Source of the DNA: a virus
Taxonomy: Duplodnaviria > Heunggongvirae > Uroviricota > Caudoviricetes
DNA length: 55,363 nucleotides
Direction: 5' to 3' (one strand)
Virus record (IMG/VR): IMGVR_UViG_2721755498_000004
Position numbers and translations under genes: made by a program. Under the pieces are notes generated by a model. The model was not told where the DNA came from. It saw nothing but the letters and a program-made list of their open reading frames with translations, and did not search any database. This document shows positions 5,204-41,721 of this stretch, in pieces (the first letter of the stretch is position 1; each line of letters opens with the position of its first letter).

Positions 5204-5229
5204 GTCATAACACTGTGTTACCTGGCTAA

Positions 5230-13027: not shown

Positions 13028-14222
<1,195 letters not shown>

Positions 14223-16111
14223 CTAGCTCTCTGCTGCTCCCGGGTCTGATATTGTTTTGAAAAGGCATCTGCTCTCTGTCTGAGTTCAATTCCTTCCTGT
14301 TGTCGCTTGTTGTAATCGTTTATTGATGAATTTAGGACGTCCTGAGCAATTTTTTCTGCTTGAAGTACGCCCAATTGCTGCTTTAATCGTGCCAGCCTTT
14401 TATTTTGAGCTCCGCCATCTCCAATGCCACCTAACCCGAAAACTCCGGGTCGGGTATTTTTTTCTATTTCATCAATTTGACGGAGAACATCTGAGATTTT
14501 TTGATCAAGGGAGGCCTCACGGCCAATGTCCAGCATGGAATCCCATGCCCATTTTGCGGAGTCTGCGACAGCTTTCCATGCAGTCTCAAGATAACCAAGA
14601 TTTTCTTTAATCTGGTTGGTGCGCTGGATCATTGAGGATGAGTATGCTTCTGTCGCAATGCGGGCGGCCTCCTGCTGGTTCCCTTCATCCTGTAGCGCCT
14701 TAATCTGGTTATAAGTCGCAATTGTCAGAAAATGGTACTGATCATTAAGTTTTGATATGGCACTGACAGGATCCTTTGCAATTTCATTGAAGTCATTAAC
14801 CAGTTGTTCGGTTGATATTCCTGTTACTTCGCTCGTTTTTACTATCGCTGTCGTCACTTGCTCCAGCGAACTGCTCGCTACCTTTCCCGAACGCACAAGC
14901 TGGTTTAATACTGCCGCCGCAGCGCCAGTTGTCGAATCAGCCGCATTCCCGGCACGTTGAGCTATATCGGCCAATTGCCCGCTGGTTGTCCCCAACTGAT
15001 TTCCGGTAAGAATAAGAGATTTATTAAATTCGTCCTGCTCCTGAGAGCCTTTATAGTAAGCCAGTCCTAAGACCCCAACGGCTGCTGCGGCCAGGGTAAA
15101 AGGATTAATTAATCCCAGCACATAAGAACCTACACCTTTGATCGCCGGGCCAATCCCACCGAACATATCTTTTAGCTGGCCGCCCTGCTGCATTAACACC
15201 ATAAATGGCGACTGACCAGTGGACAACCCAACAACAATATCCGTCATTTGTGCAGGCAACATGCGCATAGCAAAAGCCGTTTGTTTTGCCGACATTCCGG
15301 TTTTGCTTAATTGTGATTGAGTAACCTCAAGCTCACTCCGCATAGCACGAAGTTTTCCAGAAAGCTCCTCATACATTTCAGGAGAAAGCATCCCCTTAGC
15401 TTTTGCTTCATTGAGCTGTTTCTGTTGTTCTACCAGACGATTAAAAGCAGTTCCGACAGGATCAAGTTGAGCAATCAGACGTTGCAAAGCAACAACCTGT
15501 TCATCATGCGCTTTTGCTGCTTCTCGCTCTGCCTGAGCCTCTCCGGTAAGCTCTCGCCGTGTTTCCTGTATTTTTCGGCTATAATTCTCAAACTGAGAAC
15601 CATTTATTTTCCCGGATGCAAACGCAGCATTAAGTTCATCATGCTGTTGTTCAAGATTTCTTAGCGCCGCAGCCAGAGGGTCGATCTTGTCCAGCATTCT
15701 TTGAAAGGCCTGAGCCTGCGCTTCCTGCTGGGCGGCAGCAAGTTTTCCGGCCTTCTCGGCTTCTCTCTGCGCTTGCGCAACCCCGCTCAATTCCTCTGTG
15801 GTTTCATTAAGTTTACGGACAAGAAATTCATATTCTTCTTTATCAATAAGCCCTTTATCGAAAAATTTCTTTAATTCAGAATAGCGTCGACCGACAGTAT
15901 CAATTGCGGCACCAACTGGATCAATAGCTGCTTTTAATTTTGCGAGCGCGTTCTTCTCATCTTCTGTTGCCTTAGTCACTTTCCCTGCGCTATTTGCAGC
16001 AGTTTCCCCAGCCTGCGTCATTTTGACTAATGAGGAGGTCAGATTGTCAGCATTATTTTTCGCTCCAGTGCTATCAATAATTATTGCGAGACGCGAGGTT
16101 TGCTCTGCCAT
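14223..16111 (-). pseudogene. tail tape-measure protein H, N-terminal fragment (gene split by IS5)
   Basis: Long coiled-coil-rich ORF directly downstream of G/T; the annotated ORF runs 69 codons into IS5 before stopping at 14015. Confidence 0.8.
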
Positions 16112-16276: not shown

Positions 16277-17046
16277 CTACACACACTGCTCCTGAAAATA
16301 CTGGTCATCCAGTGCAAAGATCACTGCTTCAAATTCATCGCGCTCAATCAATACCGGATGAGTGGCTAAATATTCATTTATCTCTGTCAGAGATAAAGGC
16401 AAAGGCACCCCAGCCATTCCAGCATAACGTCGGGCACGGGATATTACCGAATAGGCGTACAACAACTCCTTAAGCACCGGGTCTATTTCTGGTTCCGGTA
16501 TCGGTGGCAACCTGAGTTTTTCTCGCTTCCATCTTGCCTTTTCCCCCCTTTCTCCCCCGAACTCCGATAACCACCGCTGGGCAGCTATGGCTTTTTTATC
16601 GTATCCTGCTTCTGCTGCTCTTTACCCTGGGCGATGCTGGCTGCTTCTGCAAGGATCTGCCAGTACAACTCTGGATTCTGCTTAAGCAGCGCGATCCCTC
16701 GTTCTGCCGTATATTCCAGTGCAACCTCAACACCATTAACCAGTTCACCAACCCCTTTCCAGTCTTTCAGCAGATAACGAGCGGCATTATCAATGAGTAA
16801 ATCATCAACAGAATCCACCTCGGAAACCTTTGAAATATCAAACTCCTTCGTTCCGACGTGCAAACTGGCATCCATTTTCTCAATGTGGCGACGGATTAAT
16901 GCATTACGGGAGCGATACTGATCGTTATCACTGCTTGCCACCAACAGTTTTAACCCGTCTACAGGTTTTAAGTCCTTCATTGGCGTAAACCAGCGTTCTC
17001 CACCAATGATAATTTTCTGATTAAGAATAAACATCCATAACCTCAT
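16277..17046 (-). CDS. tail assembly chaperone G-T fusion made by programmed -1 frameshift
   Basis: The -1 frame from the heptamer AAAAAAG (plus 16591-16597) stays open to 16277 and is the frame of ORF 16277..16510; same arrangement as lambda G/GT. Confidence 0.7.
16585..17046 (-). CDS. G: tail assembly chaperone G
   Basis: 153 aa between major tail protein and tape measure; ends ...IKKP with slippery A AAA AAG just before the stop. Confidence 0.8.
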   Translation of the reverse strand: MRLWMFILNQKIIIGGERWFTPMKDLKPVDGLKLLVASSDNDQYRSRNALIRRHIEKMDASLHVGTKEFDISKVSEVDSVDDLLIDNAARYLLKDWKGVGELVNGVEVALEYTAERGIALLKQNPELYWQILAEAASIAQGKEQQKQDTIKKP

Positions 17047-24466: not shown

Positions 24467-25777
24467 TTAAATCCGAAGTGATGTGACTCTTCCGGTCGGT
24501 TTGACAATAGGGAATTGCTTAACGATGAAATAACCTCCGGCATCATTCGGGTGATCATTGCCAGATTTTTTATCAGGCTCCCCCTTCTCATCCCAGACCT
24601 GTTGCTCCAGAGATTCGGCATATAACGGGCAACGCTTCACATTAACTTTATAGCGACGCTCACCATTGGCATTGCAGAACATTGCATTCATTGAGTTAAC
24701 GCGATCTTTTACTGGCGGGTTCGAGCTGTTCACCACAACGTTAAAACCAGCCTGCTTAAGCTGGGCTATATCCGTCGTACTTGCGTTACTTGATTTTCTG
24801 GAATCCCCGGAAGCATCTGGATAAATATAAATTTCCCTCACTTTCCGGTAATCATTCCCATCATACAGCCAGAAGCGTTCTTTAATGATGCGGATCATAT
24901 CCGGCGTATCGTAGGCATTGATGATTTCAGTTACCGCACATGGAAGCCCCAAACGCAGCACATGGACGATTCCCGCCATCTTTCCAACGTTAAAATCCAT
25001 CCCAATATAAATCGGCTCCCCTGGCTGCTCCACTTCTTCGCAATTATTCAGTTTCCGGTCAAACTGATGGTAAACAGTACCACTTGTCAGGTTAGTAAAC
25101 TGTCCTCGAAGATAGGCTTTAATCAGCTCTGGAGGGTATGATTCAAGAAGCGAAGGAATGTAATCTGCTGGCAGGTTCTTTTCATTATCGAAAGTAGATG
25201 CCTGCACCAGACCATACAGTGAGGCCAGCTCTGTTTTTTCACGCACGGCTTTAACAAACTGCTCGTAGACAAATTTGAATCCTTCCGGCGTGGTTGTAAC
25301 GTCAATACCGTTGCGAAGTCCATCAATCTTATAACGCATACGTGCAATTATCTTGCGCCACGCCGTTCTGGCTTTTTCCTTCGGCAAAATGTCCAGTTCA
25401 TCCACCAACGCATTACCAATTTTGAAACCGACGATCGTTTGTGGCTTCTCCATCGATCTGCAGATAGTGGTTCCCCGATACTGGCGTCCGTAATAAAAGT
25501 GAACCTCTTTATTTCCCTCATTAATTTTTACGTTCAATCCCCAGTCAGCAGCAACTTCTTCCACTGTAGGGTAAAAAATATCGCGAATTTGGGGATACGT
25601 TGGCGCAAAATATCCCTGATTTATACCTGGATGCTCCCAAATCCCCTTGCATATGCCGCCACACCCAACCCATGTTTTGCCCGAGCCAAAACCAGCAATA
25701 TAGGCTTTAAATTTATGGGGCATTGAAAGAAATCGCGCCTGAGGCACATTAAGCGTCGGAGAGATCATCTTCATCAC
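24467..25777 (-). CDS. terminase large subunit
   Basis: 436 aa with N-terminal Walker A (GFGSGKT) and downstream acidic nuclease-type motifs; follows the small subunit. Confidence 0.85.
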   Translation of the reverse strand: MMKMISPTLNVPQARFLSMPHKFKAYIAGFGSGKTWVGCGGICKGIWEHPGINQGYFAPTYPQIRDIFYPTVEEVAADWGLNVKINEGNKEVHFYYGRQYRGTTICRSMEKPQTIVGFKIGNALVDELDILPKEKARTAWRKIIARMRYKIDGLRNGIDVTTTPEGFKFVYEQFVKAVREKTELASLYGLVQASTFDNEKNLPADYIPSLLESYPPELIKAYLRGQFTNLTSGTVYHQFDRKLNNCEEVEQPGEPIYIGMDFNVGKMAGIVHVLRLGLPCAVTEIINAYDTPDMIRIIKERFWLYDGNDYRKVREIYIYPDASGDSRKSSNASTTDIAQLKQAGFNVVVNSSNPPVKDRVNSMNAMFCNANGERRYKVNVKRCPLYAESLEQQVWDEKGEPDKKSGNDHPNDAGGYFIVKQFPIVKPTGRVTSLRI

Positions 25778-26843
25778 TCCTTACTCTGGCATCAACCACA
25801 TTAATATTGATCGCCACAGGCTGGGGATGTTCATTATCTTCCACCGTTTCGATCTCTTTGCGCAGCTTCTGGTTTTCCATTCTGCGCCGTTCAATTTCCA
25901 GTTCCTGTAGCCGCTTATCTGCACATAAAGCCCCGCCAGCAGAAAGCAAACGCAACAATTCACGCCGGGCGGCAGCCTTATCCTCCAGCAGGATCTCAAC
26001 GCCGAATTTTCCGAATTTTGCCCCTGCATATAATTGCCGCGCATCCCCATCAAGCAGAGTGGTATCAGCCATATAAAGCTGTCCCGTTCCCTCACCGCAG
26101 CACTTCGGGCAGTCCGGATTGGGTATGGCGTTATCAACAAAGCCGAGGCCTCCATATTCCGGTTCGGGTTTGCCATCTCTGGAAGCCTGCGCCGCTGCCT
26201 TGTCGAATTCTGCTATATCGCGCCACTGGTAGAGATGATTCTCGCCCCAGCAATAACGGCAGTTAACACGGCGAAATTGTGCAAGCTGATTGGGGTCGGC
26301 CAGGACAATGGCCATCAACTGACTCACTAGTAAATCCAGGTCTGCGGTATAGCGTTTCTGGTACTGATTGCGGAAGTAGCTGATAGCGCGAAAAACCCTG
26401 GCATTTCTAAGCATACGACTGGCGTTGCTGTTAGCTGTCGCACCTTGCCCCTCATAACCGGCTAGTCGGTACGCCTCTGTCGGCTTTTTACCCTGAGCAA
26501 CAAGCATCGCAAACTTAGCCTGCTGGTCAGAAATGCCGAATTCATCGGGACAGAACGAAAATTCCTCCGCGTCGCCCTCATTCAGGCCCGCATCGAATAC
26601 TGGCTTTTTTTCCTGAGATTTTTCGTTCCGCTTTTGTGCAGTCTGCGCAGATTTTTTCTGCGCACTTTTTTGCGCAGTTTTGCGCATTTCTGTCTGCGCA
26701 TTTTTCGGAGTTTTTTTGATGTAACGACGGGCTGTTGCGTAATTCAGTCCCCTTGCTTCACACCATGCCACCGGAGATATACCGGAGCGGGTGTATTCAG
26801 CAATATACTCCTGCTGCAACGCCCCCCAGTCCGGTCTGCTCAT
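25749..26843 (-). CDS. terminase small subunit (P27-family-like)
   Basis: 364 aa; N-terminal HTH-like segment, KRNEKSQEKK basic linker, paired CxxC..CxxC motifs, acidic C-terminus; immediately upstream of and overlapping TerL. Confidence 0.65.
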   Translation of the reverse strand: MSRPDWGALQQEYIAEYTRSGISPVAWCEARGLNYATARRYIKKTPKNAQTEMRKTAQKSAQKKSAQTAQKRNEKSQEKKPVFDAGLNEGDAEEFSFCPDEFGISDQQAKFAMLVAQGKKPTEAYRLAGYEGQGATANSNASRMLRNARVFRAISYFRNQYQKRYTADLDLLVSQLMAIVLADPNQLAQFRRVNCRYCWGENHLYQWRDIAEFDKAAAQASRDGKPEPEYGGLGFVDNAIPNPDCPKCCGEGTGQLYMADTTLLDGDARQLYAGAKFGKFGVEILLEDKAAARRELLRLLSAGGALCADKRLQELEIERRRMENQKLRKEIETVEDNEHPQPVAININVVDARVRSDEDDLSDA

Positions 26844-26846
26844 CAG

Positions 26847-27098
26847 TTAGTCCTGATTTTTATCCACCCTGAGTAGTTCGCGCAGAGCAAAGGCATCCCC
26901 TTTTCTGGCAAGCTTAAACAATGCCGCTCGTAACTCGGCTTCACCTTTCGCTCTGCCCTTACGGATGGCCGCATAAAAATCTGTCATTGCTTCCCGATTT
27001 TCTTTCAGTCGGTTCAGATCAACATCCAGAACGTCAGCGATTTGTTGTGCAGTCATCCGGCACGCTGCCAGAGACTCGACTTTCGAATACGGAATCAT
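26847..27098 (-). CDS. hypothetical protein (83 aa)
   Basis: Small helical, charged ORF upstream of TerS; overlaps the 3' end of the next gene by about 65 nt, so its true start is uncertain. Confidence 0.35.
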   Translation of the reverse strand: MIPYSKVESLAACRMTAQQIADVLDVDLNRLKENREAMTDFYAAIRKGRAKGEAELRAALFKLARKGDAFALRELLRVDKNQD

Positions 27099-27987
27099 TT
27101 GTCACCCCCATTGATATGCAGGGTGTCTTCTTCCTGTATTTTTCGTGAAGGATTTTTACTGCAGCGTTGTTCCAGGTGACCTGATGGTGAATGCGTTTAT
27201 GGCTGGCACCCATCAGTGAAATTTTTACGCACGACGGCGCATACATGACGGAGTAAAAACTTTTAACGTAGGTTCCGGAATCCAGATACAGCTCGGTCAT
27301 TCCGCCGCTGTTTTTCTGCGTCTGTTTCTGCCCTAACTGGACAGCACCGATCGTCATAAACAATTCACCACAGCGACCGAGATTCGTGTACGTATTCACA
27401 TCCTCGTTAATGCGCCCCATGAATGAGAACGGTCGATCAACCGAACAGATAAAGCTGTTCATTGCCTTGCGTTTCACCCACGAAGCATGGCCGCCATTGT
27501 CACCAAGAAAATCCCCGCCCTGCGACATAGCGATGGAAAGAGCAGGTATTGATTCGTAGTACGCCAGCATTTCAGAAAGGATCGCATCCAGTTTCCTTAT
27601 CGGAAAATAGGCCTGGTCATAGTTGCGATCCACCCGAAACTGGAACTCGTGATAATCATCATCGAGCTGAATGAAGTATTTACACCCGACCAGTTTTGCC
27701 AGGTCAAAACAGGCATTACGGGCGTAAAAAATTGAGCGGCGGTCACAGAAATTATCGGCTTCGTCAAAACGACTGGCGATATCGGCTTTGGAAAACACCA
27801 GCACCTGTTCACCAAATTCAGCCATGTACTGATGCCGTGTCTTATCTTCATCATCAACAACGATAAAAATTTTCCCGGTATAGCCAGCACGACGCAACGT
27901 CCGGTAAGTCAGAACTTTGTCTGGTCGCCCGTGAGTCAGAATAAAGGCGCAAAAATCATCACGCATATTCCTCCTCCTCACCACCAT
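27034..27987 (-). CDS. uncharacterised protein with GT-A-like glycosyltransferase motifs
   Basis: 317 aa; FILTHGRPDK near the N-terminus, VVDDED, a DXD-like QLDDDY about 100 residues in, and NEDV further on, spaced as in family-2 GT-A enzymes. No TM segments. Motif reading only. Confidence 0.5.
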   Translation of the reverse strand: MVVRRRNMRDDFCAFILTHGRPDKVLTYRTLRRAGYTGKIFIVVDDEDKTRHQYMAEFGEQVLVFSKADIASRFDEADNFCDRRSIFYARNACFDLAKLVGCKYFIQLDDDYHEFQFRVDRNYDQAYFPIRKLDAILSEMLAYYESIPALSIAMSQGGDFLGDNGGHASWVKRKAMNSFICSVDRPFSFMGRINEDVNTYTNLGRCGELFMTIGAVQLGQKQTQKNSGGMTELYLDSGTYVKSFYSVMYAPSCVKISLMGASHKRIHHQVTWNNAAVKILHEKYRKKTPCISMGVTNDSVFESRVSGSVPDDCTTNR

Positions 27988-28750
27988 GCATGATCTCCAC
28001 CATGCGCTGCGTCATCCGGACAAATCCATTTTCAATAGCCTGCTGATAATCAATGATCACCAGCGCCGACTCCTCGAAAAAACACTGAATTTCAGCGGGG
28101 GCGTGAGCGTAATAGTCCGCAATTCTGCTGAAATTAAACACCGTGTGACGTTCTGCCGCACACAGGAGGAATTTCTCAATATCAGGCTCAAGGGACGCCG
28201 AACGTATCCGGCTGATCAGCTCCTGAGTTTTCGTATCGTCGTACAGTTCACTGATATCCGGTTTACCGCCCGACGGCTCATAAACAGGCGTATCAATTTT
28301 CGTCGTATACGGCTCCTCCTCATTTCCTGTACCGGGCAAAACATCCGTCAACAGTTCATCAATTTCTGTCGGGATGAAGCCTGTCAGGGAGACATCAAAA
28401 TCAGCATTGATTAGGTCCGACAGCTCCATCCGCAACAGATCTTCATCCCAGCCAGCATTCATCGGCAGGCGATTATCTGCCAGGCGGTACGCCTTTTTCT
28501 GCTCATCCGTCAGGCCAGACAGAACAATGACCGGAACAGAATCCATTTTGAGCATTTCAGCCGCCATAACACGACCGTGACCCGCAATAATTTCGCCCTT
28601 TTCGTCAATCAGCACCGGATTAGTCCAGCCGAATTGCTTAATACTTTCTACCAGTTGTGCCACCTGCTCAGGGCTGTGCGTCCTGGCGTTGTGCGCATAC
28701 GGTGACAATTCTTGTAATGGGCGATAGACTATCTTTAATTTCTCGCTCAT
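27959..28750 (-). CDS. ParB N-terminal-domain (ParB/Srx-like) protein
   Basis: 263 aa; N-terminal block ...NPVLIDEKGEIIAGHGRVMAA... with the GxxR motif of ParB-like nuclease/NTPase domains; acidic C-terminus; overlaps the GT-like gene by 29 nt. Confidence 0.65.
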   Translation of the reverse strand: MSEKLKIVYRPLQELSPYAHNARTHSPEQVAQLVESIKQFGWTNPVLIDEKGEIIAGHGRVMAAEMLKMDSVPVIVLSGLTDEQKKAYRLADNRLPMNAGWDEDLLRMELSDLINADFDVSLTGFIPTEIDELLTDVLPGTGNEEEPYTTKIDTPVYEPSGGKPDISELYDDTKTQELISRIRSASLEPDIEKFLLCAAERHTVFNFSRIADYYAHAPAEIQCFFEESALVIIDYQQAIENGFVRMTQRMVEIMHGGEEEEYA

Positions 28751-28887
28751 ACAGCCTTGCTTTATGAATAAAACGCACCCCAGCAGCCAGTGCTACTGGG
28801 GGCGGAGGTGTTGCTGGTAAAGTTAGGTATTGGATCAATGAGTGAGTCAACATAATATTAAACTCACAATTATAAATCAGCCATATA

Positions 28888-30345
28888 TTAGGAGCGCCAA
28901 AAAAAACCTGAAAACAATATAATAACAGGATAAATTTCAAGGCGACCAAGAATCATAGCTATGCACATTAAATATTTTGCAATGTCATTAAGCACTCCGA
29001 ATGACGATGCAGTAGCCCCAAAACCTAATCCCATATTATTAATACATGCAGCCACTGTTGCAAATGATGTAAGAAAATCATATCCCATACCATTTAACAC
29101 CAGTATAAAAAACACCGTGAAGAGAGTATAAAGAAAAAAGAAACTCCATACAGACCTCATTACACGATCTGTAACTATCTTCCCTCCTACATTTACACTC
29201 AACAACGCTCTGGGATGAGAAAGCTGATTTATCTCGTGTTTGCTTTGTTTGAAAAGTATAAGAAATCGAAGTGACTTAATTCCACCACAGGTTGAACCTA
29301 TACATCCCCCAAAGAAACTTGACAACAGCAAAAACACTATCGTGTGCGTGGGCCAGTTTGCATAATCCTGCGTAGCTAAACCATTATCAGTGAGCATGGA
29401 GCTGGCAAGAAAAAACGAATGAATAAAACTTCCATGCAAGTCATACATACCTATATGCCAGACCTGGAAAGAGGTAACAATGATCACCCCTAAGGCTATT
29501 AACAGAAAGAAACGAAGTTCAATATCTCTGATTAAAGGTTTTATCGTTTTTCTGCTAATAACAATATACCAAAGAGTGAAGTTGAAAGCCGATAGCAGGG
29601 AAAAAGAACCAGCCACCAGCTCAACCAAATAGTTATTAAAATATCCGATACTCTCGCTATGAGTTGAGAAACCACCAAGCGAAACTGTGGAAATCCCGTG
29701 ACAAATAGCATCAAACAAAGGCATTCCTGCAAGTCTATAACAGACAATACAAGCAATACCTAATAAAGAATAAGTTATCCACAGTGTCCGTGACGTATCG
29801 GCCAGGCGGGGAGTGAGTTTGTCATCCTTAAATGGCCCCGGCATTTCTGACTGATAAAGCTTTGCACCACCAATACCCAATAATGGCAATACTGCAACCG
29901 CCAGAACAATAACTCCTAAACCACCTATAAAATTTAACTGTGACCGATAGTACAAATATGCCCGAGGTAATGAACTAACATCATCAATTACAGTTGCTCC
30001 TGTTGTTGTTATTCCAGAAACCCCTTCAAACAGAGCATCAATGAACGTTAAATTAAGTTCTGAGTCAATCCATAAAGGGAATGCACTAATAACAGAAAAC
30101 AAAATCCAAAACATTACAATTATAATAAACCCATCACGGGTACGTAATTGAATGCCAGATTTCTTAGTTGTATACCACGCTCCGCCACCAATGCAAAAAA
30201 ATATAACGAAAGTTATAAAGAAAACGAACAGGCTTTTTTCTTTATAAAACAATGCTACAACCATTGGTGGCAACATTGAAAGACTATAGAGCCAAACCAA
30301 GAACCCACACATATGAGTAACAACTCTTACATGAGATGTATTCAT
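28888..30345 (-). CDS. trkG: TrkH/TrkG-family potassium uptake protein
   Basis: Polytopic membrane protein; from MNTSHVRVVTH it is 485 aa, the length of K-12 TrkG, which is a known Rac cargo gene; AT-rich relative to neighbours. Confidence 0.9.
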   Translation of the reverse strand: MNTSHVRVVTHMCGFLVWLYSLSMLPPMVVALFYKEKSLFVFFITFVIFFCIGGGAWYTTKKSGIQLRTRDGFIIIVMFWILFSVISAFPLWIDSELNLTFIDALFEGVSGITTTGATVIDDVSSLPRAYLYYRSQLNFIGGLGVIVLAVAVLPLLGIGGAKLYQSEMPGPFKDDKLTPRLADTSRTLWITYSLLGIACIVCYRLAGMPLFDAICHGISTVSLGGFSTHSESIGYFNNYLVELVAGSFSLLSAFNFTLWYIVISRKTIKPLIRDIELRFFLLIALGVIIVTSFQVWHIGMYDLHGSFIHSFFLASSMLTDNGLATQDYANWPTHTIVFLLLSSFFGGCIGSTCGGIKSLRFLILFKQSKHEINQLSHPRALLSVNVGGKIVTDRVMRSVWSFFFLYTLFTVFFILVLNGMGYDFLTSFATVAACINNMGLGFGATASSFGVLNDIAKYLMCIAMILGRLEIYPVIILFSGFFWRS

Positions 30346-30482
30346 ATCTAAATATTCTTTCAATTATAACCACCTTGCTGCAATATTATGATTATACTGT
30401 ATAAAATTTAACTCCTCTTAGATCTTACTTCACTGTTCCTTATGAAACAATCATCAAAATGAATCATATTGTAGTTAAGATT

Positions 30483-33106: not shown

Positions 33107-33171
33107 TGATCTTACCCAGCAATAGTGGACACGCGGCTAAGTGAGTAAACTCTCAGTCAGAGGTGACTCAC

Positions 33172-33471
33172 ATGACAAAAACAGTATCAACCAGTAAAAA
33201 ACCCCGTAAACAGCATTCGCCTGAATTTCGCAGTGAAGCCCTGAAGCTTGCTGAACGCATCGGTGTTACTGCCGCAGCCCGTGAACTCAGCCTGTATGAA
33301 TCACAACTCTACAACTGGCGCAGTAAACAGCAAAATCAGCAGACGTCTTCTGAACGTGAACTGGAGATGTCTACCGAGATTGCACGTCTCAAACGCCAGC
33401 TGGCAGAACGGGATGAAGAGCTGGCTATCCTCCAAAAGGCCGCGACATACTTCGCGAAGCGCCTGAAATGA
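33172..33471 (+). CDS. insE: IS3 transposase OrfA
   Basis: [32 protein letters not shown]... recognised as IS3 InsE; ATG 9 nt inside the track ORF, which starts at GTG 33163. Confidence 0.9.
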
Positions 33472-34334
33472 AGTATGTCTTTATTGAAAAACATCAGGCT
33501 GAGTTCAGCATCAAAGCAATGTGCCGCGTGCTCCGGGTGGCCCGCAGCGGCTGGTATACGTGGTGTCAGCGGCGGACAAGGATAAGCACGCGTCAGCAGT
33601 TCCGCCAACACTGCGACAGCGTTGTCCTCGCGGCTTTTACCCGGTCAAAACAGCGTTACGGTGCCCCACGCCTGACGGATGAACTGCGTGCTCAGGGTTA
33701 CCCCTTTAACGTAAAAACCGTGGCGGCAAGCCTGCGCCGTCAGGGACTGAGGGCAAAGGCCTCCCGGAAGTTCAGCCCGGTCAGCTACCGCGCACACGGC
33801 CTGCCTGTGTCAGAAAATCTGTTGGAGCAGGATTTTTACGCCAGTGGCCCGAACCAGAAGTGGGCAGGAGACATCACGTACTTACGTACAGATGAAGGCT
33901 GGCTGTATCTGGCAGTGGTCATTGACCTGTGGTCACGTGCCGTTATTGGCTGGTCAATGTCGCCACGCATGACGGCGCAACTGGCCTGCGATGCCCTGCA
34001 GATGGCGCTGTGGCGGCGTAAGAGGCCCCGGAACGTTATCGTTCACACGGACCGTGGAGGCCAGTACTGTTCAGCAGATTATCAGGCGCAACTGAAGCGG
34101 CATAATCTGCGTGGAAGTATGAGCGCAAAAGGTTGCTGCTACGATAATGCCTGCGTGGAAAGCTTCTTTCATTCGCTGAAAGTGGAATGTATCCATGGAG
34201 AACACTTTATCAGCCGGGAAATAATGCGGGCAACGGTGTTTAATTATATCGAATGTGATTACAATCGGTGGCGGCGGCACAGTTGGTGTGGCGGCCTCAG
34301 TCCGGAACAATTTGAAAACAAGAACCTCGCTTAG
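33468..34334 (+). CDS. insF: IS3 transposase OrfB (DDE domain)
   Basis: 288 aa, recognised as IS3 InsF; overlaps orfA as expected for the -1 frameshift fusion. Confidence 0.9.
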
Positions 34335-35960: not shown

Positions 35961-36406
35961 AGTAGCCACATGATAAGTTGCTGGAATCATATTTCCCACT
36001 CAAGTCATTAACATTTGATAAGATATATCTAAAAGGACGCCTTTACATTATTTATGTGTATATAATTTATTTATATACACAGTAAAGGTATCCTGGGAAA
36101 ATATTTATCGTTAAAAAATACATCATAAATAATTAAGCTGAAATTTCAGAACACAACTAATACACACAATAAGGTTCAGTAACAATAATCTATGTGGACT
36201 ACATCGAGATTTTTTGATTAAACTTTAATAACTTATTCCTAACACACAGAATGCATAAACTAAAAGTAAAACAAATAGTTATACGAAAAACAACCATATT
36301 TATTATATCTTCTCCTCTAATCAACATATCAATTATGTGTTTCATAACAGCTTGACATAACCCTCAAAAACACGCATTTATAATGCATGTTTTTGATGAG
36401 GTGGTT

Positions 36407-36745
36407 ATGACACACAAGAGAATTCCTAAAGATTGGGTAATCAAACGCTCAACTCCGTTCTTCACAAAAGAGAACGTACCTTCAGCGTTATTAACACATC
36501 ATAATACAGCAGCAGGTGTTTTTGGGCAGTTGTGCGTAATGGAAGGCACTGTAACATATTATGGTTTTACTGATGAGAATGCTACTGAACCGGAGATAAA
36601 AGTAGTCATTAATGCTGGCGCTTTTGCAACAAGCCCACCACAATACTGGCACCGTGTTGAACTAAGCGATGATGCTCAGTTTAATATTAACTTTTGGGTC
36701 GCTCCAGACTTCTCGGGCGAAAAAGTCTATAGCACCAAAAAATAG
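36407..36745 (+). CDS. YeaR-like protein (DUF1971)
   Basis: 112 aa from MTHKRIPKDW; shares RSTPF...VMxGxVxYxGxxDE...EP...AGxFAxxPPxxWH...FNIxFxVAP with recalled E. coli YeaR. Confidence 0.65.
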   Translation: MTHKRIPKDWVIKRSTPFFTKENVPSALLTHHNTAAGVFGQLCVMEGTVTYYGFTDENATEPEIKVVINAGAFATSPPQYWHRVELSDDAQFNINFWVAPDFSGEKVYSTKK

Positions 36746-36774
36746 ATGATCATATTAAAAATGCTTTAACAGTC

Positions 36775-36811
36775 AGACCCGGCAGGGCTATCCCCGACGG
36801 GTCTCATTTTT
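36775..36811 (+). terminator. rho-independent terminator after the yeaR-like gene
   Basis: Imperfect 12-bp GC-rich stem (gacccggcaggg / ccccgacgggtc) with 4-nt loop, followed by TTTTT, 30 bp past the stop. Confidence 0.6.
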
Positions 36812-37468
36812 GTAAATATATTGGTTCTACATTGACAGGAGACTTCAACCATAAGAAGTAATCTGAATACTTGAGCAATAAATTTACTTAAGATTAATGA
36901 GCGCACCTTGCCGGACAAAGATAAACCAAGGTAACACCTTTTTTCTAGCCAGTATGTAATCAATCAGAAAGCCGCTCCATAAGAACAACAGCAAGACAAT
37001 AAATTGCCATTACAGCCGCAATAGCTAGCGCACATTTGAGAACCAGCACGACAACCTCCTGTATTGGACGTACACCAGTTCTGATAAATATGAGGCTGTC
37101 TCATCATTGATTCAATATAACTATTGGGTATAGTTTCTGTGATTTTGTTCTGTAGAAATGGAACACAACAACCAGTCACCACCAGCACTTCTTTAAATAC
37201 GCCAAGTCCGACGCAAGCTAACCTTCTAGTCCGCTTTGAGCGAGGAGCGGACCAAACCCGGCCAACTGACTCTTAAAGGGGCCGCAGGAATTTTTCGTCT
37301 GAACTTTCGAAGCTCCTCTCCCTGAAGACAGAAAACTTCTGTGTGCTGTGGGAATATTGAATCTTTGCCTTAGATATAAATAATTTTATCCCGCCTGAAG
37401 TTTACATTATTTTATTTATCTGTTTTTCTAAATCAGACTGCACTCCTTACTTAAATCAGGAGCCAGTC

Positions 37469-38668
37469 ATGCCATTTGTTATTTATGTGTTTACTATCAG
37501 TGCCTTTGCGCTCGGACTCGCGGAATTTGTCCCCATTGGGCTGACAGACGTTATGGCTCAGGGGTTGTGTGTGGGTGTGGAGCAGACCGGGGCAGCGGTT
37601 ACAACCTATGCACTGGGGGCAACGTTCGCGGCACCCGTACTGTCTGCGCTGACAGCAAGCTGGAGCCGGAAAAATGTAATGCTTACAACTGCCGTTGTGT
37701 TTACTGCCGGTAGTCTGGCGGCCGCGTTTGCAGCCACATTACCTCAGCTCCTGTTAGCGCGGTTCATTGCTGGTCTGGGACACGGCCTGTTTCTGGCTGC
37801 GGCATCCAGTACCGCAGCTCGTCTTGCTGGACCGGGTAAAGCAGGCAGAGCGGTGGCTGTGGTATTTGGTGGCTTTACTCTGGCGATGGCAATCGGCGTA
37901 CCGCTGAGTACATGGTTGGGGGGGGTGGTCTCATGGCGTCCAGTTCTCGGCGCTATTGCCGCTTTTGGCGCGTTCGGATTCCTTGGACTGTTGTTCGGTA
38001 TGAAAGATCCCGTACGCAGCGTGCCCGGTGAACATAGTGACTCAGCAATGCAGAATATCGGCATGCTGTTTAACCGTAAGTTGCTGGCCGGCGCGCTGGT
38101 TACGGTGCTGGCGTATGCAGGCTCGTTTACGGCTTACACCTTTATCGCACCTATTCTGACGCAGGTGACAGGGGTTACCGGAGCAACGGTGAGTCTGTTT
38201 ATGCTGGTTTACGGTATTACAGCTGCGGTAGGTAATATTCTTGGTGGGAAACTTACCGACAGCATGGGGGTTAATCGTGCCAATATACTCATCATTAGCG
38301 GCATTGTTGTTGTCGTGCTTGGTATGTGGCTGCTGTCATCCTCACCGGTGAGCATGGGCATTCTGGTTGCGCTGCTGGGTATGGTGACATTTGCCGCAGT
38401 GCCGGCACTGCAGGCCCGTCTGATTGGTGTCGCTGAGCAACATGCTCCTCATGCGCATGGTGTTGCTGCCGGCCTGAATATTGCGGGCTTCAACTCAGGT
38501 ATAGCGCTGGGATCAGTACTGGGCAGCATTACTATAAGCCACGCCGGTATCGTGTATACCGGTATCAGCGGTGCGATTGTTTCTCTGCTCGGCCTGCTGT
38601 TGCTGCTTGCACAAATCCGTCGCAGCCACAGTCGTAAATTTCAACAGGTTAAAATCGTAGGCCAGTAA
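37469..38668 (+). CDS. MFS transporter (12-TM)
   Basis: 399 aa, hydrophobic throughout, Gly/Ala-rich helices typical of major-facilitator permeases; GC-rich relative to phage genes. Confidence 0.8.
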   Translation: MPFVIYVFTISAFALGLAEFVPIGLTDVMAQGLCVGVEQTGAAVTTYALGATFAAPVLSALTASWSRKNVMLTTAVVFTAGSLAAAFAATLPQLLLARFIAGLGHGLFLAAASSTAARLAGPGKAGRAVAVVFGGFTLAMAIGVPLSTWLGGVVSWRPVLGAIAAFGAFGFLGLLFGMKDPVRSVPGEHSDSAMQNIGMLFNRKLLAGALVTVLAYAGSFTAYTFIAPILTQVTGVTGATVSLFMLVYGITAAVGNILGGKLTDSMGVNRANILIISGIVVVVLGMWLLSSSPVSMGILVALLGMVTFAAVPALQARLIGVAEQHAPHAHGVAAGLNIAGFNSGIALGSVLGSITISHAGIVYTGISGAIVSLLGLLLLLAQIRRSHSRKFQQVKIVGQ

Positions 38669-38679
38669 AGGGAGGTTAT

Positions 38680-39372
38680 ATGCTTACCCGTGAAAATATG
38701 CTTAATGGCACATTTGTCAGGGTGCATGAAGCGCTGCTCCCGGCGAATATGCTCTGGGACGCTGAAAAAATACGCGCATCAATGAACTCTACTCTGGAGG
38801 AGCGCCCGACGGGTGCTCCTGTCTGGATATTTGCCTACGGGTCATTGATGTGGAATCCCGTGCTGGCGATTGAAGAAATGCAACGGGCCCGTCTGAAAGG
38901 ATGGCAGCGCAGTTTCTGCATTCGTTTGATATCCGGACGAGCGACTCCTGATGTCCCCGGCAGGATGTTATCGCTCGACGAAGGTGGAATTACCGAAGGT
39001 ATTGCGTTCAGACTGCCGGAATCGACTCTTATTAATGAGCTGGAAATTGTCTGGACGCGCGAGATGATAACCGGTCTTTACCGTCCGGTCTGGGCAGACG
39101 TTTCGCTAGGAAACGGTGAGGAAATTCAGGCGCTGGCTTTCGTATCAGACAGACTGCATCCGCATTATGAACAGGACAATCTTACAGCGACCGTAGCGTT
39201 GAGCATCGCATCTGCCCGTGGAGACATTGGCACGAATGCAGATTATGTATGGAAACTGCAGGCCACTCTGGGTGCGTTGGGAATACGGGATGATTACGTG
39301 AGTGAACTGGCCCTTGCTCTGCATGAGGCTCCCTGTAACGATAAACTTCATCAGCGAGGCGCTTCACTATGA
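38680..39372 (+). CDS. ChaC-like gamma-glutamylcyclotransferase family protein
   Basis: 230 aa with YGSLMWNP motif, collinear with recalled E. coli ChaC; 11 bp after the MFS gene. Confidence 0.7.
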   Translation: MLTRENMLNGTFVRVHEALLPANMLWDAEKIRASMNSTLEERPTGAPVWIFAYGSLMWNPVLAIEEMQRARLKGWQRSFCIRLISGRATPDVPGRMLSLDEGGITEGIAFRLPESTLINELEIVWTREMITGLYRPVWADVSLGNGEEIQALAFVSDRLHPHYEQDNLTATVALSIASARGDIGTNADYVWKLQATLGALGIRDDYVSELALALHEAPCNDKLHQRGASL

Positions 39373-40250
39373 GCCATCTGAGCCATCTGCGAACGTTTCT
39401 TGAGGCCTATCGCTCTGGCTCCTTTTCAAAGGCGGCAGAACTACTGGGCATCACTCAGCCCGCGGCGTCACAGCATATCCAGTCTCTTGAGACTCTGGTT
39501 GGTAAGCGTCTGTTTATCAGGCAGGCCAGAGGCGTGACGGCAACCGAAGCTGCGGATGAGCTTGCCCGCTCAGTTTCACCCTTCATTGATGGTCTGGAAG
39601 AAAAGCTGTCCTCTTTCCGGTCAGGCTCTGTACGCGGGGGAACAATTAATCTGGCAGGACCGCCAGATTTTATTCATTCCCGGCTTGGGACAGTAATGGC
39701 TCCACTAATGAAGGAGGGGTATCGCCTACGCTTTCATACCGGCAATAAGCAACGTATTTATTCCCTTTTGCATGACGGGAGCGCCGATCTCGCTGTTACC
39801 GCATCTATGCCTGATGACCGTCTGTACGGCTATGCACATCTACTGACTGAACGCATGCTCCTTGTTCATGCTCCCGCCATGTCAGAGATCATCGGATCAG
39901 AACCTGGTGCTGAAACGCTTGCCTCATTACCGCTGATTGCTTATGACGAAGAGTTGCCACTGATTAGAGCGCTCTGGGCCTCCATGTTTCAGAGAGCCCC
40001 TGAGATGCAGGCTACATTCACCATTCCGGATTTACGTATTATCCGCGACTTGGTCTGTGACGGCCACGGGTGGACAGTGCTGCCGGATTATCACTGTGAC
40101 AATGACCTGAAAAGTGGTCGCCTGATTTCAGTGACACCTGCAGACCTCGCTCCGACTAATCATCTTTATCTGGTCTGGAACAAAAGGACGGCTAATAACA
40201 GCCGAACCGCCTATGTTCGGGATTACATTCTTAAAACGTTTCCGCGTTGA
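39369..40250 (+). CDS. LysR-family transcriptional regulator
   Basis: 293 aa; N-terminal HTH (..FSKAAELLGITQPAASQHIQSLE..) and LysR-type substrate-binding domain; 4-bp overlap with the ChaC-like gene. Confidence 0.85.
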   Translation: MSHLSHLRTFLEAYRSGSFSKAAELLGITQPAASQHIQSLETLVGKRLFIRQARGVTATEAADELARSVSPFIDGLEEKLSSFRSGSVRGGTINLAGPPDFIHSRLGTVMAPLMKEGYRLRFHTGNKQRIYSLLHDGSADLAVTASMPDDRLYGYAHLLTERMLLVHAPAMSEIIGSEPGAETLASLPLIAYDEELPLIRALWASMFQRAPEMQATFTIPDLRIIRDLVCDGHGWTVLPDYHCDNDLKSGRLISVTPADLAPTNHLYLVWNKRTANNSRTAYVRDYILKTFPR

Positions 40251-40380
40251 TGTTTGAAACGGATGATTGGCGATGCGTATCATAAGTTACGTATGTCCGC
40301 TTCTGGCACAAAGCAGACGCCCACTCTCACGCGAATGCTTTGCCCTTGACTTGCCAACAACCGTATCGCTTGCTCCGCAA

Positions 40381-41673
40381 CTATGGTTTTTTATTAGAAT
40401 CTTCGCCACTAAATAAATTATAATAAATTGATTTTATTAGATATCTGTCAGAATCTATATGGTCAGCACGAGTAGCATGCTCTAATGTTTCAAATGCCAG
40501 AGTATGTGCGGCTTCAGCAAATATCCCAGGCCAACCCTTACTCAGCATCGACAGTCCTTTAAGTACCCTTATCTGAATTTCCCTCATACTGGCACCATCG
40601 CGCGCAACAGGTGAGAAAAAGTCTTCAAGTAGATCGTTATTCTGAAGTGGTGCAACATGTACAGAAGGATATTTCACTTCTATTTCATCAGATTTATTCT
40701 GCGCGTAAGCGGAAAGTATACGTACACCTCTGCCAATGACATCAATGGCGGTTCCAGGATCGTTCACTGCGGGGGAAAGGGCTCGGCAGGCTATTTCGGC
40801 CATGACGCTAAGACAAAATCGGGGGTCCTGAGCAAATGAACGTACATCCGAGACAATAATCGTCTCAAGTAAATCGGTGCTGATTGATGACTCCTGGCCC
40901 TGACTCAGGTACAAAACTGGCGTGGACGGATGTATGAAACTGCCCGGCTGCGCCACGAGGTATACATGACGGGGATCATTGGTCAGCAGCTTGCTGAGTT
41001 TCACCATATCAACATATTCAACATAGCCAATCTTTTTCGGATAAACTGCAACCGTTCCTTTCGGCTGTTCATTGTTCTCAAGCCATGGATATCCGCCGAG
41101 ACAGGGATTTCTTGCTCTCGCAATAAATGTTTCGATGGCCGCCTGTTCTACTTTTGCCGTTGTCTCACCAACCCTCCCCAGAGAGGTCAAATGCTGTATC
41201 CAGCGAAGCAATGTGATGAGGATTAAGGCAATGACAACCAGTGTTACAATGAATAAAATGACTCTCCCCCTTTCTCCATAAGCTCCCATATTGAGGGCAA
41301 TAATCCCTACCAGACTGAAGAGAAAAGAACCGATGAAGGTGGCCAGTACATTTTGTGTGGTGACGTCTTCAACAACTAAACGAGTAGCTCTGGGAGTCAC
41401 ATTAGTAGTGGCTGAACCGTAGGCTGTGACCATGATGCTCAGCGAAAATGTGGTCACTGCCAGCATACTCGATGCCAGTATGTTCAGAATGTTATCGACT
41501 GCTTCCGCACCAACCTTCACGGAAACCGACTCAGGTATCATTGATTTAAAAAGAATTGATAAAAGGGCCGTTATTATTGCGACAATTGCGAATAACGTTG
41601 CCCTGAACCATAGTTTTTTAAATGTCTGCTTCAGCATCCATTTCCAGCGTGAAATCATTCTGCATTCCCTCAT
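40381..41673 (-). CDS. DUF2254-like membrane protein
   Basis: 430 aa; N-terminal block of about 4 TM helices and a large soluble C-terminal domain. Family name from recall. Confidence 0.5.
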   Translation of the reverse strand: MRECRMISRWKWMLKQTFKKLWFRATLFAIVAIITALLSILFKSMIPESVSVKVGAEAVDNILNILASSMLAVTTFSLSIMVTAYGSATTNVTPRATRLVVEDVTTQNVLATFIGSFLFSLVGIIALNMGAYGERGRVILFIVTLVVIALILITLLRWIQHLTSLGRVGETTAKVEQAAIETFIARARNPCLGGYPWLENNEQPKGTVAVYPKKIGYVEYVDMVKLSKLLTNDPRHVYLVAQPGSFIHPSTPVLYLSQGQESSISTDLLETIIVSDVRSFAQDPRFCLSVMAEIACRALSPAVNDPGTAIDVIGRGVRILSAYAQNKSDEIEVKYPSVHVAPLQNNDLLEDFFSPVARDGASMREIQIRVLKGLSMLSKGWPGIFAEAAHTLAFETLEHATRADHIDSDRYLIKSIYYNLFSGEDSNKKP

Positions 41674-41685
41674 ATTGCAGCCGGG

Positions 41686-41714
41686 ATAAATAAATGCCGC
41701 CTCTGTGGCGGCAT
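41686..41714 (-). terminator. rho-independent terminator candidate after the BCCT gene
   Basis: Stem atgccgcc/ggcggcat with 5-nt loop, followed on the minus strand by ttatttat; between the BCCT stop and the DUF2254 start. Confidence 0.5.
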
Positions 41715-41721
41715 GTTGCTG

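What the first reader, a model, noticed from the sequence alone, without database searches (positions are those of the whole stretch)
26847..28750. Uncharacterised ParB-like + glycosyltransferase-like gene pair between the lysis cassette and the small terminase
Two overlapping minus-strand genes sit where phages often carry DNA-modification genes, just upstream of terS. One has a ParB/Srx-type N-terminal domain with a GHGR motif; the other (317 aa, soluble) has motifs spaced like a GT-A fold sugar transferase. No methyltransferase or PAPS-reductase motifs were seen, so it does not look like a ParB-methylase or IbrAB-type pair. It could be a DNA or virion glycosylation module, or an anti-restriction / defence function. 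Short K-12 Rac ORFs at this position (ynaK, ydaY) may be its remnants.
Basis: partly seen in the sequence, partly recalled or inferred. Interest (0 to 1): 0.6.

Follow-up and report, generated by a model that had tools for sequence, protein, structure and literature searches.

The report
Phage ParB-adaptor plus orphan sugar transferase
A Rac-like E. coli prophage carries, just upstream of its DNA-packaging genes, a sugar-transferring enzyme of the DNA-glycosylating TAGT family and a ParB-like partner protein; the pair is widespread in phages but lacks the usual enzymes that prepare DNA for glycosylation, so its target is unknown and could be tested directly in E. coli.

Summary

New here:
- The invariant partner of this GT is not ParB_N. 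It is the Pfam-unassigned, acidic C-terminal ~120 aa of the ParB-like protein (Yx6PxY plus a helical domain). It precedes the GT in 89 of 91 loci and sometimes stands alone.
- The pair sits upstream of four unrelated TerL families in at least 52 of 64 loci, across many bacterial phyla; an archaeal virus carries it too.
- No TET/5mYOX, hydroxymethylase or DNA methylase was found in the window or in two complete small phages.
- The ParB_N module is interchangeable with that of phage ParB-DNA-methylase fusions, which occupy the same slot.

Best reading (about 0.45): a two-subunit, late-expressed DNA glycosyltransferase whose acceptor is unknown. Rivals are protein glycosylation (possibly of the partner's invariant tyrosines), another acceptor, or a packaging role.

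K-12 ynaK is a remnant of the ParB-like gene; ydaY is not a remnant of the GT.

The family is catalogued in databases, and no experimental characterisation was found in the library searched.

The parts
27959..28750 (-). Gene for the 263-aa ParB_N-CTD partner protein (acidic, pI 4.5). K-12 ynaK is its 5' remnant.
   Evidence: ORF; Pfam ParB_N; phrog_620 E 1e-90; pI; K-12 comparison
28451..28750 (-). ParB/Srx N-terminal domain (residues 1-100). It carries GHGR (28571-28582) in place of GERR. R60 and N93 are invariant.
28331..28450 (-). Helical 'GWD' extension (residues 101-140). It is shared with phage ParB-DNA-methyltransferase fusions.
   Evidence: phrog_498 match over residues 3-141, E 1e-50; PADLOC MTase_II match over residues 10-144, E 2.5e-38; tblastn to methylase N-termini at up to 50-55% identity
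27962..28330 (-). C-terminal domain (residues 141-263), the invariant partner of this GT clade. It has a disordered Yx6PxY motif (28280-28309), a helical domain with invariant R201, Y214, E226, D234 and G242, and an acidic tail. It has no Pfam family.
27959..27966 (-). ATGCGTGA overlap of the ParB-like stop codon and the GT start codon, preceded by a GGAGGAGGAGGAA Shine-Dalgarno sequence. This arrangement implies translational coupling.
   Evidence: Sequence. The same -7 to +8 nt junction occurs in most relatives.
27034..27966 (-). Gene for the 310-aa GT-A glycosyltransferase, Pfam TAGT / 'GREB1-related protein'. DDD lies at 27655-27663. The last ~25 residues are an E. coli-specific, low-confidence tail.
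26847..27098 (-). Small ORF (83 aa; PGAP 69 aa starting at 27056), basic, with similarity to terS. It overlaps the GT tail and is probably part of the packaging recognition apparatus rather than of the pair.
   Evidence: phrog_309 E 8e-23; annotation
28778..28801 (-). Terminator-like hairpin after trkG, just upstream of the ParB-like gene.
   Evidence: Scan; sequence
24467..26843 (-). Context: terS (25749-26843, Terminase_2) and terL (24467-25777, Terminase_6N/6C), directly downstream.
   Evidence: Pfam

Best explanation
The pair encodes a two-subunit nucleic-acid-directed glycosyltransferase.

Shown:
- The 310-aa protein has the fold and the invariant DxD motif of a GT-A Leloir glycosyltransferase. 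It belongs to the TAGT family and looks catalytically intact.
- Its gene is translationally coupled to a partner gene.
- The partner's C-terminal ~120 residues are found upstream of this GT clade in almost every locus examined.

Inferred:
- The C-terminal domain (CTD) binds the GT and may complete its acceptor site.
- The N-terminal ParB/Srx module is the same module that phages fuse to DNA methyltransferases. It is proposed to act as an NTP-binding dimerising adaptor that holds the enzyme on DNA or activates it there. This would resemble the recently shown action of ParB-like proteins on phage thymine dioxygenases acting on dsDNA.
- Because the pair is expressed as the first genes of the late packaging operon, it would glycosylate replicated phage DNA just before or during packaging. 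The likely benefit is protection from host nucleases or marking of the DNA.
- The acceptor is not hydroxymethyl-pyrimidine made by the phage, since no such pathway was found. It must be something universally available, and it is not identified.
For: - Partnership: the genes overlap by ATGCGTGA. The CTD HMM hits the upstream ORF nearest the GT in 89 of 91 loci, with E mostly 1e-27 to 1e-45. It does so even where ParB_N is absent and the partner is a standalone protein of about 135 aa.
- DNA link, ParB_N module: residues 10-144 match the N-terminus of the PADLOC type II methylase model at E 2.5e-38. Residues 1-144 are up to 50-55% identical to the N-termini of genes annotated as phage DNA methylases. 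A ParB_N-methylase gene lies just upstream of terS/TerL in Streptococcus phage Javan447, and a ParB_N gene annotated as a methylase does so in Vibrio phage phi 2.
- DNA link, NTP pocket: R60 and N93 are invariant.
- DNA link, gene context: the first large downstream gene is a TerL of four unrelated families, or a terS, in at least 52 of 64 loci. The remainder include DNA pol III beta and DnaB. In the Vibrio 191-kb phage the pair sits between primase/exonuclease and a helicase.
- Universal substrate: the GT is 44-59% identical across many bacterial phyla and 43% identical in an archaeal virus, while the neighbouring virion and terminase proteins are unrelated.
- Glycan tailoring: some relatives insert a second TAGT paralogue, a Methyltransf_23 enzyme or a P-loop protein between the two genes. 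The same accessory types are described for DNA glycan clusters (bioRxiv 10.1101/2023.12.21.572611).
- Precedent: ParB-like proteins lacking a DNA-binding domain activate phage 5mYOX on dsDNA (PMC13229309).
Against: - No hydroxymethyl-pyrimidine source (TET/5mYOX, ThyS-like hydroxymethylase) and no DNA methylase was found in the window or in complete phages c5 and phi jlb1. All characterised TAGT-type enzymes are O-glycosyltransferases, and canonical DNA bases offer no hydroxyl.
- The partner is strongly acidic (pI 4.3-4.6) and has no recognisable DNA-binding domain.
- One TAGT relative, GREB1, glycosylates a protein (PMC7968844).
- No experimental data exist for this clade.
- The AF2 models are only moderate (pLDDT 73 and 65), and no model of the complex could be run.
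Confidence: 0.45

Rival explanations
1. Protein O-glycosylation. The GT glycosylates a protein. The most economical candidate is its own partner, on the invariant tyrosines (Y148/Y157) or neighbouring Thr/Ser of the disordered YTxKIxTPxYEPS segment, in the manner of glycogenin. The alternative is a packaging or virion protein.
For: - GREB1, a TAGT-family member, is a protein O-GlcNAc transferase (PMC7968844).
- Known TAGT enzymes all glycosylate a hydroxyl, and no DNA hydroxyl donor pathway is present.
- Y148, P155 and Y157 are 100% conserved in a segment with pLDDT below 50. This segment lies next to the presumed docking domain.
- The pair lies next to the structural module.
Against: - The GT and CTD are 44-59% identical across phyla, while the adjacent terminase, portal and capsid proteins belong to unrelated families. 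A virion or terminase target is therefore unlikely; only the partner itself co-varies.
- The partner's N-terminal module is the one fused to DNA methylases.
- Some phages place the pair in replication modules.
- L002 carries separate GT2-type genes after the capsid gene, which is the usual arrangement for virion glycosylation.
- The invariant R201, E226 and D234 in the CTD look more like a functional subunit than a passive substrate.
Confidence: 0.25
2. Another acceptor. The complex acts on a nucleotide, RNA (for example tRNA) or a small molecule, or it hydrolyses or depletes a host NDP-sugar. The ParB/Srx module would supply NTP binding, or kinase-like chemistry as in SerK or sulfiredoxin.
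For: - GHGR is closer to the Srx-type GCHR than to GERR.
- A P-loop protein is inserted in one relative.
Against: - ParB_N is dispensable: standalone CTD partners exist. Chemistry that depends on ParB_N therefore cannot be the core function.
- The top structural and sequence matches are true glycosyltransferases with DxD.
- The tight linkage to terminase genes is unexplained by a metabolic role.
Confidence: 0.15
3. Packaging accessory. The pair is part of the terminase recognition or cleavage machinery, like the HNH proteins of cos phages. The ParB-like protein would bind near pac/cos, and the GT would act structurally or mark the packaging site.
For: - At least 52 of 64 relatives place the pair directly upstream of terS/terL.
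- In phage c5 the pair is the first two genes after cos.
- In Nocardia phage NTR1 the pair directly abuts TerL, with no annotated terS in between.
- Iyer et al. 2013 suggested that ParB directs modification during packaging, as cited in PMC8256090 and PMC13229309.
Against: - The pair occurs with four unrelated TerL families and several terS types. It also occurs away from terminase genes.
- Most phages with the same terminase types lack it. Only 42 of 50,697 phage records carry the GT.
- The invariant catalytic DxD argues for enzymatic sugar transfer rather than a structural role.
Confidence: 0.1
4. Prophage-encoded defence or superinfection-exclusion function expressed in the lysogen.
For: - The pair is carried by 866 of 5426 complete E. 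coli genomes, on often defective prophages. The window's prophage carries IS5, IS3 and IS1 insertions.
- It is adjacent to the moron trkG.
Against: - PADLOC gives no hit for the GT and only the methylase-type ParB_N hit for the partner.
- The pair lies in the late operon, behind a terminator-like hairpin.
- Related phages c5 (no annotated integrase) and the 191-kb Vibrio phages carry it.
- K-12 has lost it without a known phenotype.
Confidence: 0.05

Closest known systems
TAGT family (Pfam PF20691): TET-associated phage glycosyltransferases, T2/T6 beta-glucosyl-HMC-alpha-glucosyltransferase, kinetoplastid base-J GT, GREB1
   Same: Clear sequence membership (122 bits against a cut-off of 27.5). 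GT-A fold with DxD. Phage-encoded. The nearest predicted viral structures are all TAGT-domain proteins.
   Different: No TET/5mYOX, C5-methylase or hydroxymethylase partner was found. Identity to the T4-like-phage (Aeromonas) representatives is only 22-24%. The enzyme is obligately paired with a dedicated CTD protein and is linked to terminase genes. The acceptor is unknown.
ParB-dependent phage thymine dioxygenases (5mYOX176/ParB176; PMC13229309)
   Same: A phage ParB-like protein with an N-terminal NTP-binding fold and a C-terminal domain but no DNA-binding domain, encoded next to a DNA-modifying enzyme. It provides a model for an adaptor or activator acting on dsDNA.
   Different: The partner enzyme here is a glycosyltransferase, not a dioxygenase. 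Here ParB_N is dispensable in some lineages.
Phage ParB_N-DNA methyltransferase fusions (phrog_498; PADLOC MTase_II; PF02195+PF01555)
   Same: The N-terminal ~144 residues are homologous (E 1e-50 and 2.5e-38; up to 50-55% identity). The genomic slot just upstream of terS/terL is the same.
   Different: The methylase domain is replaced by the CTD, which brings in a separate GT polypeptide.
Chromosome/plasmid partition ParB (Spo0J, KorB, Noc)
   Same: ParB/Srx N-domain fold. The Box II arginine and Box III asparagine are conserved.
   Different: GHGR replaces GERR. There is no HTH domain, no ParA-binding motif and no parA neighbour. The protein is acidic. TIGR00180 scores 38 bits against a cut-off of 58. 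It is not a partition protein.
IbrAB-type ParB + PAPS-reductase pairs
   Same: A ParB-like protein paired with an enzyme in a mobile element.
   Different: No PAPS-reductase domain was detected.

Membership tests
TAGT (PF20691) glycosyltransferases | Match to the family HMM above the gathering threshold | tested here: met
   122.1 bits against 27.5, E 3.8e-35, profile positions 4-205 of 205
TAGT (PF20691) glycosyltransferases | GT-A (Fringe-like) fold with a DxD metal/NDP-sugar motif | tested here: met
TAGT (PF20691) glycosyltransferases | Genomic association with TET/JBP (5mYOX) or another source of hydroxymethyl-pyrimidine as acceptor | tested here: not met
   None in the window by Pfam scans of the non-structural ORFs or in the PGAP annotation of a related Rac-like prophage that is identical across the pair. 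None annotated in complete phages c5 and phi jlb1.
TAGT (PF20691) glycosyltransferases | Transfer of a sugar from an NDP-sugar to a DNA base or DNA-linked sugar | not testable with these tools
   Requires biochemistry or LC-MS of DNA
ParB/Srx superfamily (PF02195) | HMM match and fold | tested here: met
Partition ParB (TIGR00180; ParABS) | GERR Box II, HTH DNA-binding domain, ParA partner, parS | tested here: not met
   GHGR in place of GERR. TIGR00180 scores 38.4 against a cut-off of 58.45. No HTH domain or other Pfam hit beyond ParB_N. No parA in the window.
ParB-CTPase-fold NTP switch | Conserved P-motif arginine and Box III asparagine; NTP binding | tested here: inconclusive
   R60 and N93 are invariant, but the catalytic Glu is replaced by His. 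NTP binding cannot be tested here.
ParB-dependent 5mYOX activators (PMC13229309) | ParB N-terminal nucleotide-binding domain plus CTD without a DNA-binding domain, encoded next to and required by a 5mYOX | tested here: not met
   The architecture is similar, but no 5mYOX is present. The neighbouring enzyme is a GT.
ParB_N-DNA methyltransferase fusions (phrog_498 / PADLOC MTase_II) | ParB_N module fused to an N6/N4 methyltransferase domain | tested here: not met
   Only the N-terminal module matches (residues 3-141 and 10-144). There is no methyltransferase domain.
IbrAB-type pair | Adjacent PAPS-reductase-like protein | tested here: not met
   The adjacent protein is TAGT. No PAPS-reductase hit.
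Terminase small subunit / packaging accessory | Sequence similarity to terS families or HNH-type accessory proteins | tested here: not met
   Neither protein of the pair hits a terS or HNH family. Only the separate small ORF hits phrog_309.
Known anti-phage defence systems (PADLOC) | Match to a defence-system protein model | tested here: not met
   GT: no hit. Partner: only the methylase-type ParB_N module.

The most novel reading that the evidence does not exclude
This is a widespread two-subunit enzyme (TAGT-type GT plus a dedicated CTD subunit, usually fused to a ParB-like NTP-binding adaptor). It would glycosylate DNA that carries no hydroxymethyl handle. The acceptor would be a canonical base (N-glycosylation), the backbone or the DNA ends, modified as genomes enter the packaging pathway. 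That would be a new chemical class of post-replicative DNA modification. It would be present in phages of most bacterial phyla, in an archaeal virus, and in about one in six complete E. coli genomes.
Probability: 0.25. Interest if true: 0.85.

Novelty: new variant of a known kind. Interest (0 to 1): 0.62.

Why it matters
Surveys of phage glycosyltransferases report that about two thirds of GT-containing contigs lack any enzyme that makes a hydroxymethyl-pyrimidine acceptor (bioRxiv 10.1101/2023.12.21.572611). Their function is left open.

This locus is a clean, abundant and genetically tractable example of that unexplained class:
- It is present at 80% coverage or more in 866 of 5426 complete E. 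coli genomes.
- It is a compact two-gene unit with a defined obligate partner domain.

If the target is DNA, it would reveal a new modification chemistry. It would also extend the emerging rule that phage ParB-like modules act as adaptors for DNA-modifying enzymes (methylases, dioxygenases and now glycosyltransferases). That would bear on restriction evasion, on sequencing artefacts and on enzymes for DNA labelling.

If the target is the partner protein or another protein, it would be a bacterial-virus counterpart of GREB1-type protein glycosylation.

Either outcome is decidable with simple co-expression and mass spectrometry.

Tried and rejected
- PDB sequence searches with the GT, as a single sequence and as a profile, found nothing useful. 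Only fold comparison placed it.
- NCBIfam gave no informative hit for the GT.
- The CTD matched no Pfam family and no solved fold. Its AF2 confidence was low, so its structure remains unknown.
- The first viral-contig scan with the GT profile returned only near-identical E. coli prophages and added no diversity. The genome-contig scan was the useful one.
- Iyer et al. 2013 (NAR 41:7635), the paper that defined TAGT, is not held in the library. Its ideas are cited second-hand from PMC8256090 and PMC13229309.
- Sequences of the 5mYOX-associated ParBs were not available. Homology of the two C-terminal domains was therefore not tested.
- Literature searches for ynaK, HHTV-2 and ParB+glycosyltransferase found no functional study of this pair.
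- The 317-aa start codon was rejected in favour of the 310-aa start.
- 'Partition protein', the GenBank annotation in the phage records, was rejected (see the membership test).
- ydaY as a GT remnant was rejected.
Full report
**What is there.** The window is a Rac-like lambdoid prophage of E. coli. On the minus strand the gene order is:
- holin, lysozyme and Rz (31774-30483);
- the low-GC moron trkG (30363-28888), followed by a terminator-like hairpin (28801-28778);
- a 263-aa ParB-like gene (28750-27959);
- a glycosyltransferase gene (27966-27034);
- a small basic ORF (27098-26847);
- terS (26843-25749, Terminase_2), terL (25777-24467, Terminase_6N/6C) and portal.

The flagged 1.9 kb is at least 99% identical in 1135 E. 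coli records. It is present at 80% coverage or more in 866 of 5426 complete genomes and in 10 phage records. PGAP names the products 'ParB/Srx family N-terminal domain-containing protein' and, in newer annotations, 'GREB1-related protein'.

**The glycosyltransferase.**
- The mechanical ORF is 317 aa. Homologues begin at MRDDF, PGAP uses that start, and a GGAGGAGGAGGAA Shine-Dalgarno sequence precedes it. The product is therefore 310 aa, and its ATG overlaps the upstream stop codon (ATGCGTGA).
- It matches Pfam PF20691 TAGT at E 3.8e-35 and phrog_842 at E 7e-104.
- DDD(Y) 102-105, NEDV 187-190, QGGD 149-152 and TQxxxGGMT 216-224 are invariant or nearly so in 35 homologues. The enzyme therefore looks catalytically competent.
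- TAGT includes the T2/T6 enzyme that adds a second glucose to glucosyl-hmC (PMC13216743, PMC13390438). It is related to the base-J glucosyltransferase and to GREB1, a protein O-GlcNAc transferase (PMC7968844).

**The partner.**
- GHGR (residues 57-60) aligns with GERR of Spo0J. The second arginine (R60) and the Box III asparagine (N93) are invariant, while the catalytic glutamate is replaced by histidine.
- Residues 1-144 match the N-terminal part of phage ParB-DNA-methyltransferase fusions: phrog_498 E 1e-50, PADLOC MTase_II E 2.5e-38, and up to 50-55% identity by tblastn in 400 phage records.
- There is no HTH domain, no parA and no methylase domain. The whole protein is acidic, with pI 4.5 here and 4.3-4.6 across 32 homologues. 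It is not a partition protein.

**The key comparative result.** I built separate HMMs for the N-terminal part (residues 1-140) and the C-terminal part (141-263). I searched them against 91 loci that contain a relative of the GT. These came from a one-genome-per-species scan covering many bacterial phyla, from metagenomic phage contigs and from GenBank phages.
- The C-terminal domain (CTD) was found in the upstream ORF nearest the GT in 89 of the 91 loci; in the other two the contig begins at the GT. In most loci that ORF ends within about 25 nt of the GT start, commonly -7 to +8 nt. E-values were mostly 1e-27 to 1e-45. In a few loci another gene is inserted between the two.
- The ParB_N HMM was often weaker or absent. 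In roughly a dozen complete loci the partner is a standalone CTD protein of about 135 aa, for example in the Vibrio 191-kb phages. Longer partners that the ParB_N HMM missed have only weak Pfam ParB_N hits.
- The CTD has no Pfam family and no structural match.
- It forms 1188 clusters at 50% identity in a library of 1.84 billion proteins. In the 150 best hits it is always C-terminal.
- Across 84 diverse sequences, Y148, P155 and Y157 (a Yx6PxY motif in a disordered stretch) and L195, R201, A211, Y214, E226, D234, A238 and G242 are invariant.

So the conserved functional unit is CTD plus GT. ParB_N is a frequent but dispensable adaptor.

**Genomic context.**
- The order ParB-like, GT, terS, terL, portal recurs in phages of Lactobacillus and Porphyromonas and in metagenomic contigs. 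In phage c5 the pair is ORF1/ORF2, directly after cos. In Nocardia phage NTR1 the pair directly abuts TerL. The archaeal virus HHTV-2 has the pair about 3 kb upstream of TerL.
- 68 loci had at least 3 kb of sequence downstream of the GT. In 64 of them there is an ORF of at least 350 aa within 4 kb. That ORF is a TerL of four unrelated families (Terminase_6N 25, Terminase_3 14, TerL_ATPase 6, GpA 5) or a Terminase_2 terS (2). That makes at least 52 of 64. Others are DNA pol III beta (3) or DnaB helicases (2).
- ParB_N genes annotated as DNA methylases occupy the same slot in Streptococcus phage Javan447 and Vibrio phage phi 2.
- In a few relatives extra genes are inserted between partner and GT: a second TAGT paralogue (L163, L168), a Methyltransf_23 enzyme (L151, L154) or a P-loop protein (L170). 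These are the accessory types reported for DNA glycan hypermodification clusters.

**What is missing.** The window has no TET/JBP (5mYOX), no thymidylate-synthase-like hydroxymethylase and no DNA methyltransferase. This rests on Pfam scans of the non-structural ORFs and on the PGAP annotation of a related Rac-like prophage that is identical across the pair. The same holds for the annotations of the complete phages c5 (31.8 kb) and phi jlb1 (38 kb). The canonical TAGT acceptor is therefore absent.

**Interpretation.** The best-supported reading (about 0.45) is a two-subunit DNA-directed glycosyltransferase.
- Shown: the fold, the motifs, the translational coupling and the near-universal CTD-GT adjacency.
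- Inferred: the CTD binds the GT and perhaps completes it. ParB_N acts as an NTP-binding adaptor or activator on DNA, as shown for ParB-dependent phage thymine dioxygenases (PMC13229309) and as proposed by Iyer et al. 2013 (cited in PMC8256090). Late expression ahead of the terminase genes lets progeny DNA be modified before packaging.
- The main weakness is chemical. There is no evident hydroxyl acceptor on unmodified DNA, the partner is acidic, and one TAGT relative acts on protein.

Rivals:
- Protein glycosylation, notably of the partner's invariant tyrosines (about 0.25).
- Another acceptor such as a nucleotide, RNA or small molecule (about 0.15).
- A packaging-accessory role (about 0.10).
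- A lysogen defence role (about 0.05). This one is disfavoured by the PADLOC result, the late-operon position and carriage by phages such as c5, which has no annotated integrase.

**K-12.** Alignment of MG1655 Rac to the window shows homology running through trkG and ynaK up to window 28497. It then jumps to window 16936. This is an 11.6-kb deletion that removed the rest of the ParB-like gene, the GT, the terminase genes and the head genes. ynaK is the 5' remnant of the ParB-like gene. ydaY is a chimeric ORF made mostly of the C-terminus of the tail-region ORF at 16585-17046, so it is not a GT remnant.

**Novelty and verdict.** The protein families are catalogued (Pfam TAGT, PHROGs 620 and 842, the PGAP names). 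ParB association with phage DNA-modification genes has been noted before (PMC8256090, PMC13229309, bioRxiv 10.1101/2023.12.21.572611).

I found no experimental or dedicated bioinformatic treatment of three things: the TET-less, terminase-linked ParB_N-CTD/TAGT pair, the CTD as the GT's invariant partner, and its acceptor. I rate it a new variant of a known kind, with interest 0.62. The open question of what an orphan TAGT glycosylates is directly testable in E. coli.

Noticed in passing
window 28888-30363 (-), with hairpin 28778-28801: trkG, a low-GC (0.32-0.40) potassium-transporter moron, sits between the lysis cassette and the late packaging genes. It has its own terminator-like hairpin directly upstream of the ParB-like gene. 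Late transcription must read through this hairpin to express the pair.
   Followed up: partly
window 13027-14224; 33163-34334; 47967-48693: Three insertion sequences lie in the prophage. An IS5 copy (99.4% identical to K-12 IS5Y) splits the tape-measure gene into ORFs 11679-13097 and 14015-16111. An IS3-family element (rve transposase) lies in the nin region. An IS1 lies next to sieB. The prophage is probably defective although the ParB/GT pair is intact.
   Followed up: partly
window 36383-43725: A cargo island of about 7 kb lies inside the prophage, between the DUF1367/DUF1133 genes and the replication genes. It encodes a DUF1971 (TehB-like) protein, an MFS transporter, ChaC, a LysR regulator, a DUF2254 membrane protein and a BCCT betaine/carnitine/choline transporter. 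The related prophage in NZ_CP038791.1 carries different cargo at this spot.
   Followed up: no
L001 21121-21904 (NZ_CP038791.1), equivalent to window 27967-28750: PGAP annotates the intact 263-aa ParB-like gene, 100% identical to the window, as a pseudogene 'ynaK, incomplete, missing C-terminus'. It covers only the first 258 nt and leaves the CTD-coding part unannotated. This looks like an artefact of naming from the truncated K-12 protein.
   Followed up: partly
L163 6138-7001; L168 6166-7008; L151 about 4100-5272; L154 5838-6716; L170 6407-6985: In some relatives extra genes are inserted between the CTD protein and the GT. These are a second TAGT paralogue, a Methyltransf_23-type SAM methyltransferase, or a P-loop (AAA_18-like) protein. 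They hint at elaboration of the transferred sugar (disaccharide, methylation, phosphorylation).
   Followed up: partly
L146 7874-10030; L149 7874-10033; L152 7883-10042: In three loci from uncultured bacteria (two assigned to Bacteroidota and Kiritimatiellae) the GT is followed, 4 nt later, by an ORF of about 720 aa. Three ORFs in this downstream set carry DNA polymerase III beta (sliding clamp) domains and are probably these. A terminase does not follow.
   Followed up: no
L014 (phage phi jlb1) 11350-12746: A gap of about 1.4 kb with no annotated gene lies directly upstream of the ParB-like gene in Lactobacillus phage phi jlb1.
   Followed up: no
window 27034-27110: The E. coli GT has a C-terminal extension of about 25 residues (pLDDT below 50) that is absent from homologues of about 288 aa. 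It overlaps the start of the small terS-like ORF in another frame. It probably arose at a recombination junction between modules.
   Followed up: partly
L009 (Nocardia phage NTR1) 3-3408: The ParB-like gene and the GT directly abut the large terminase gene, with no annotated small terminase between them. It is unclear where terS is, or whether the pair substitutes for it.
   Followed up: no
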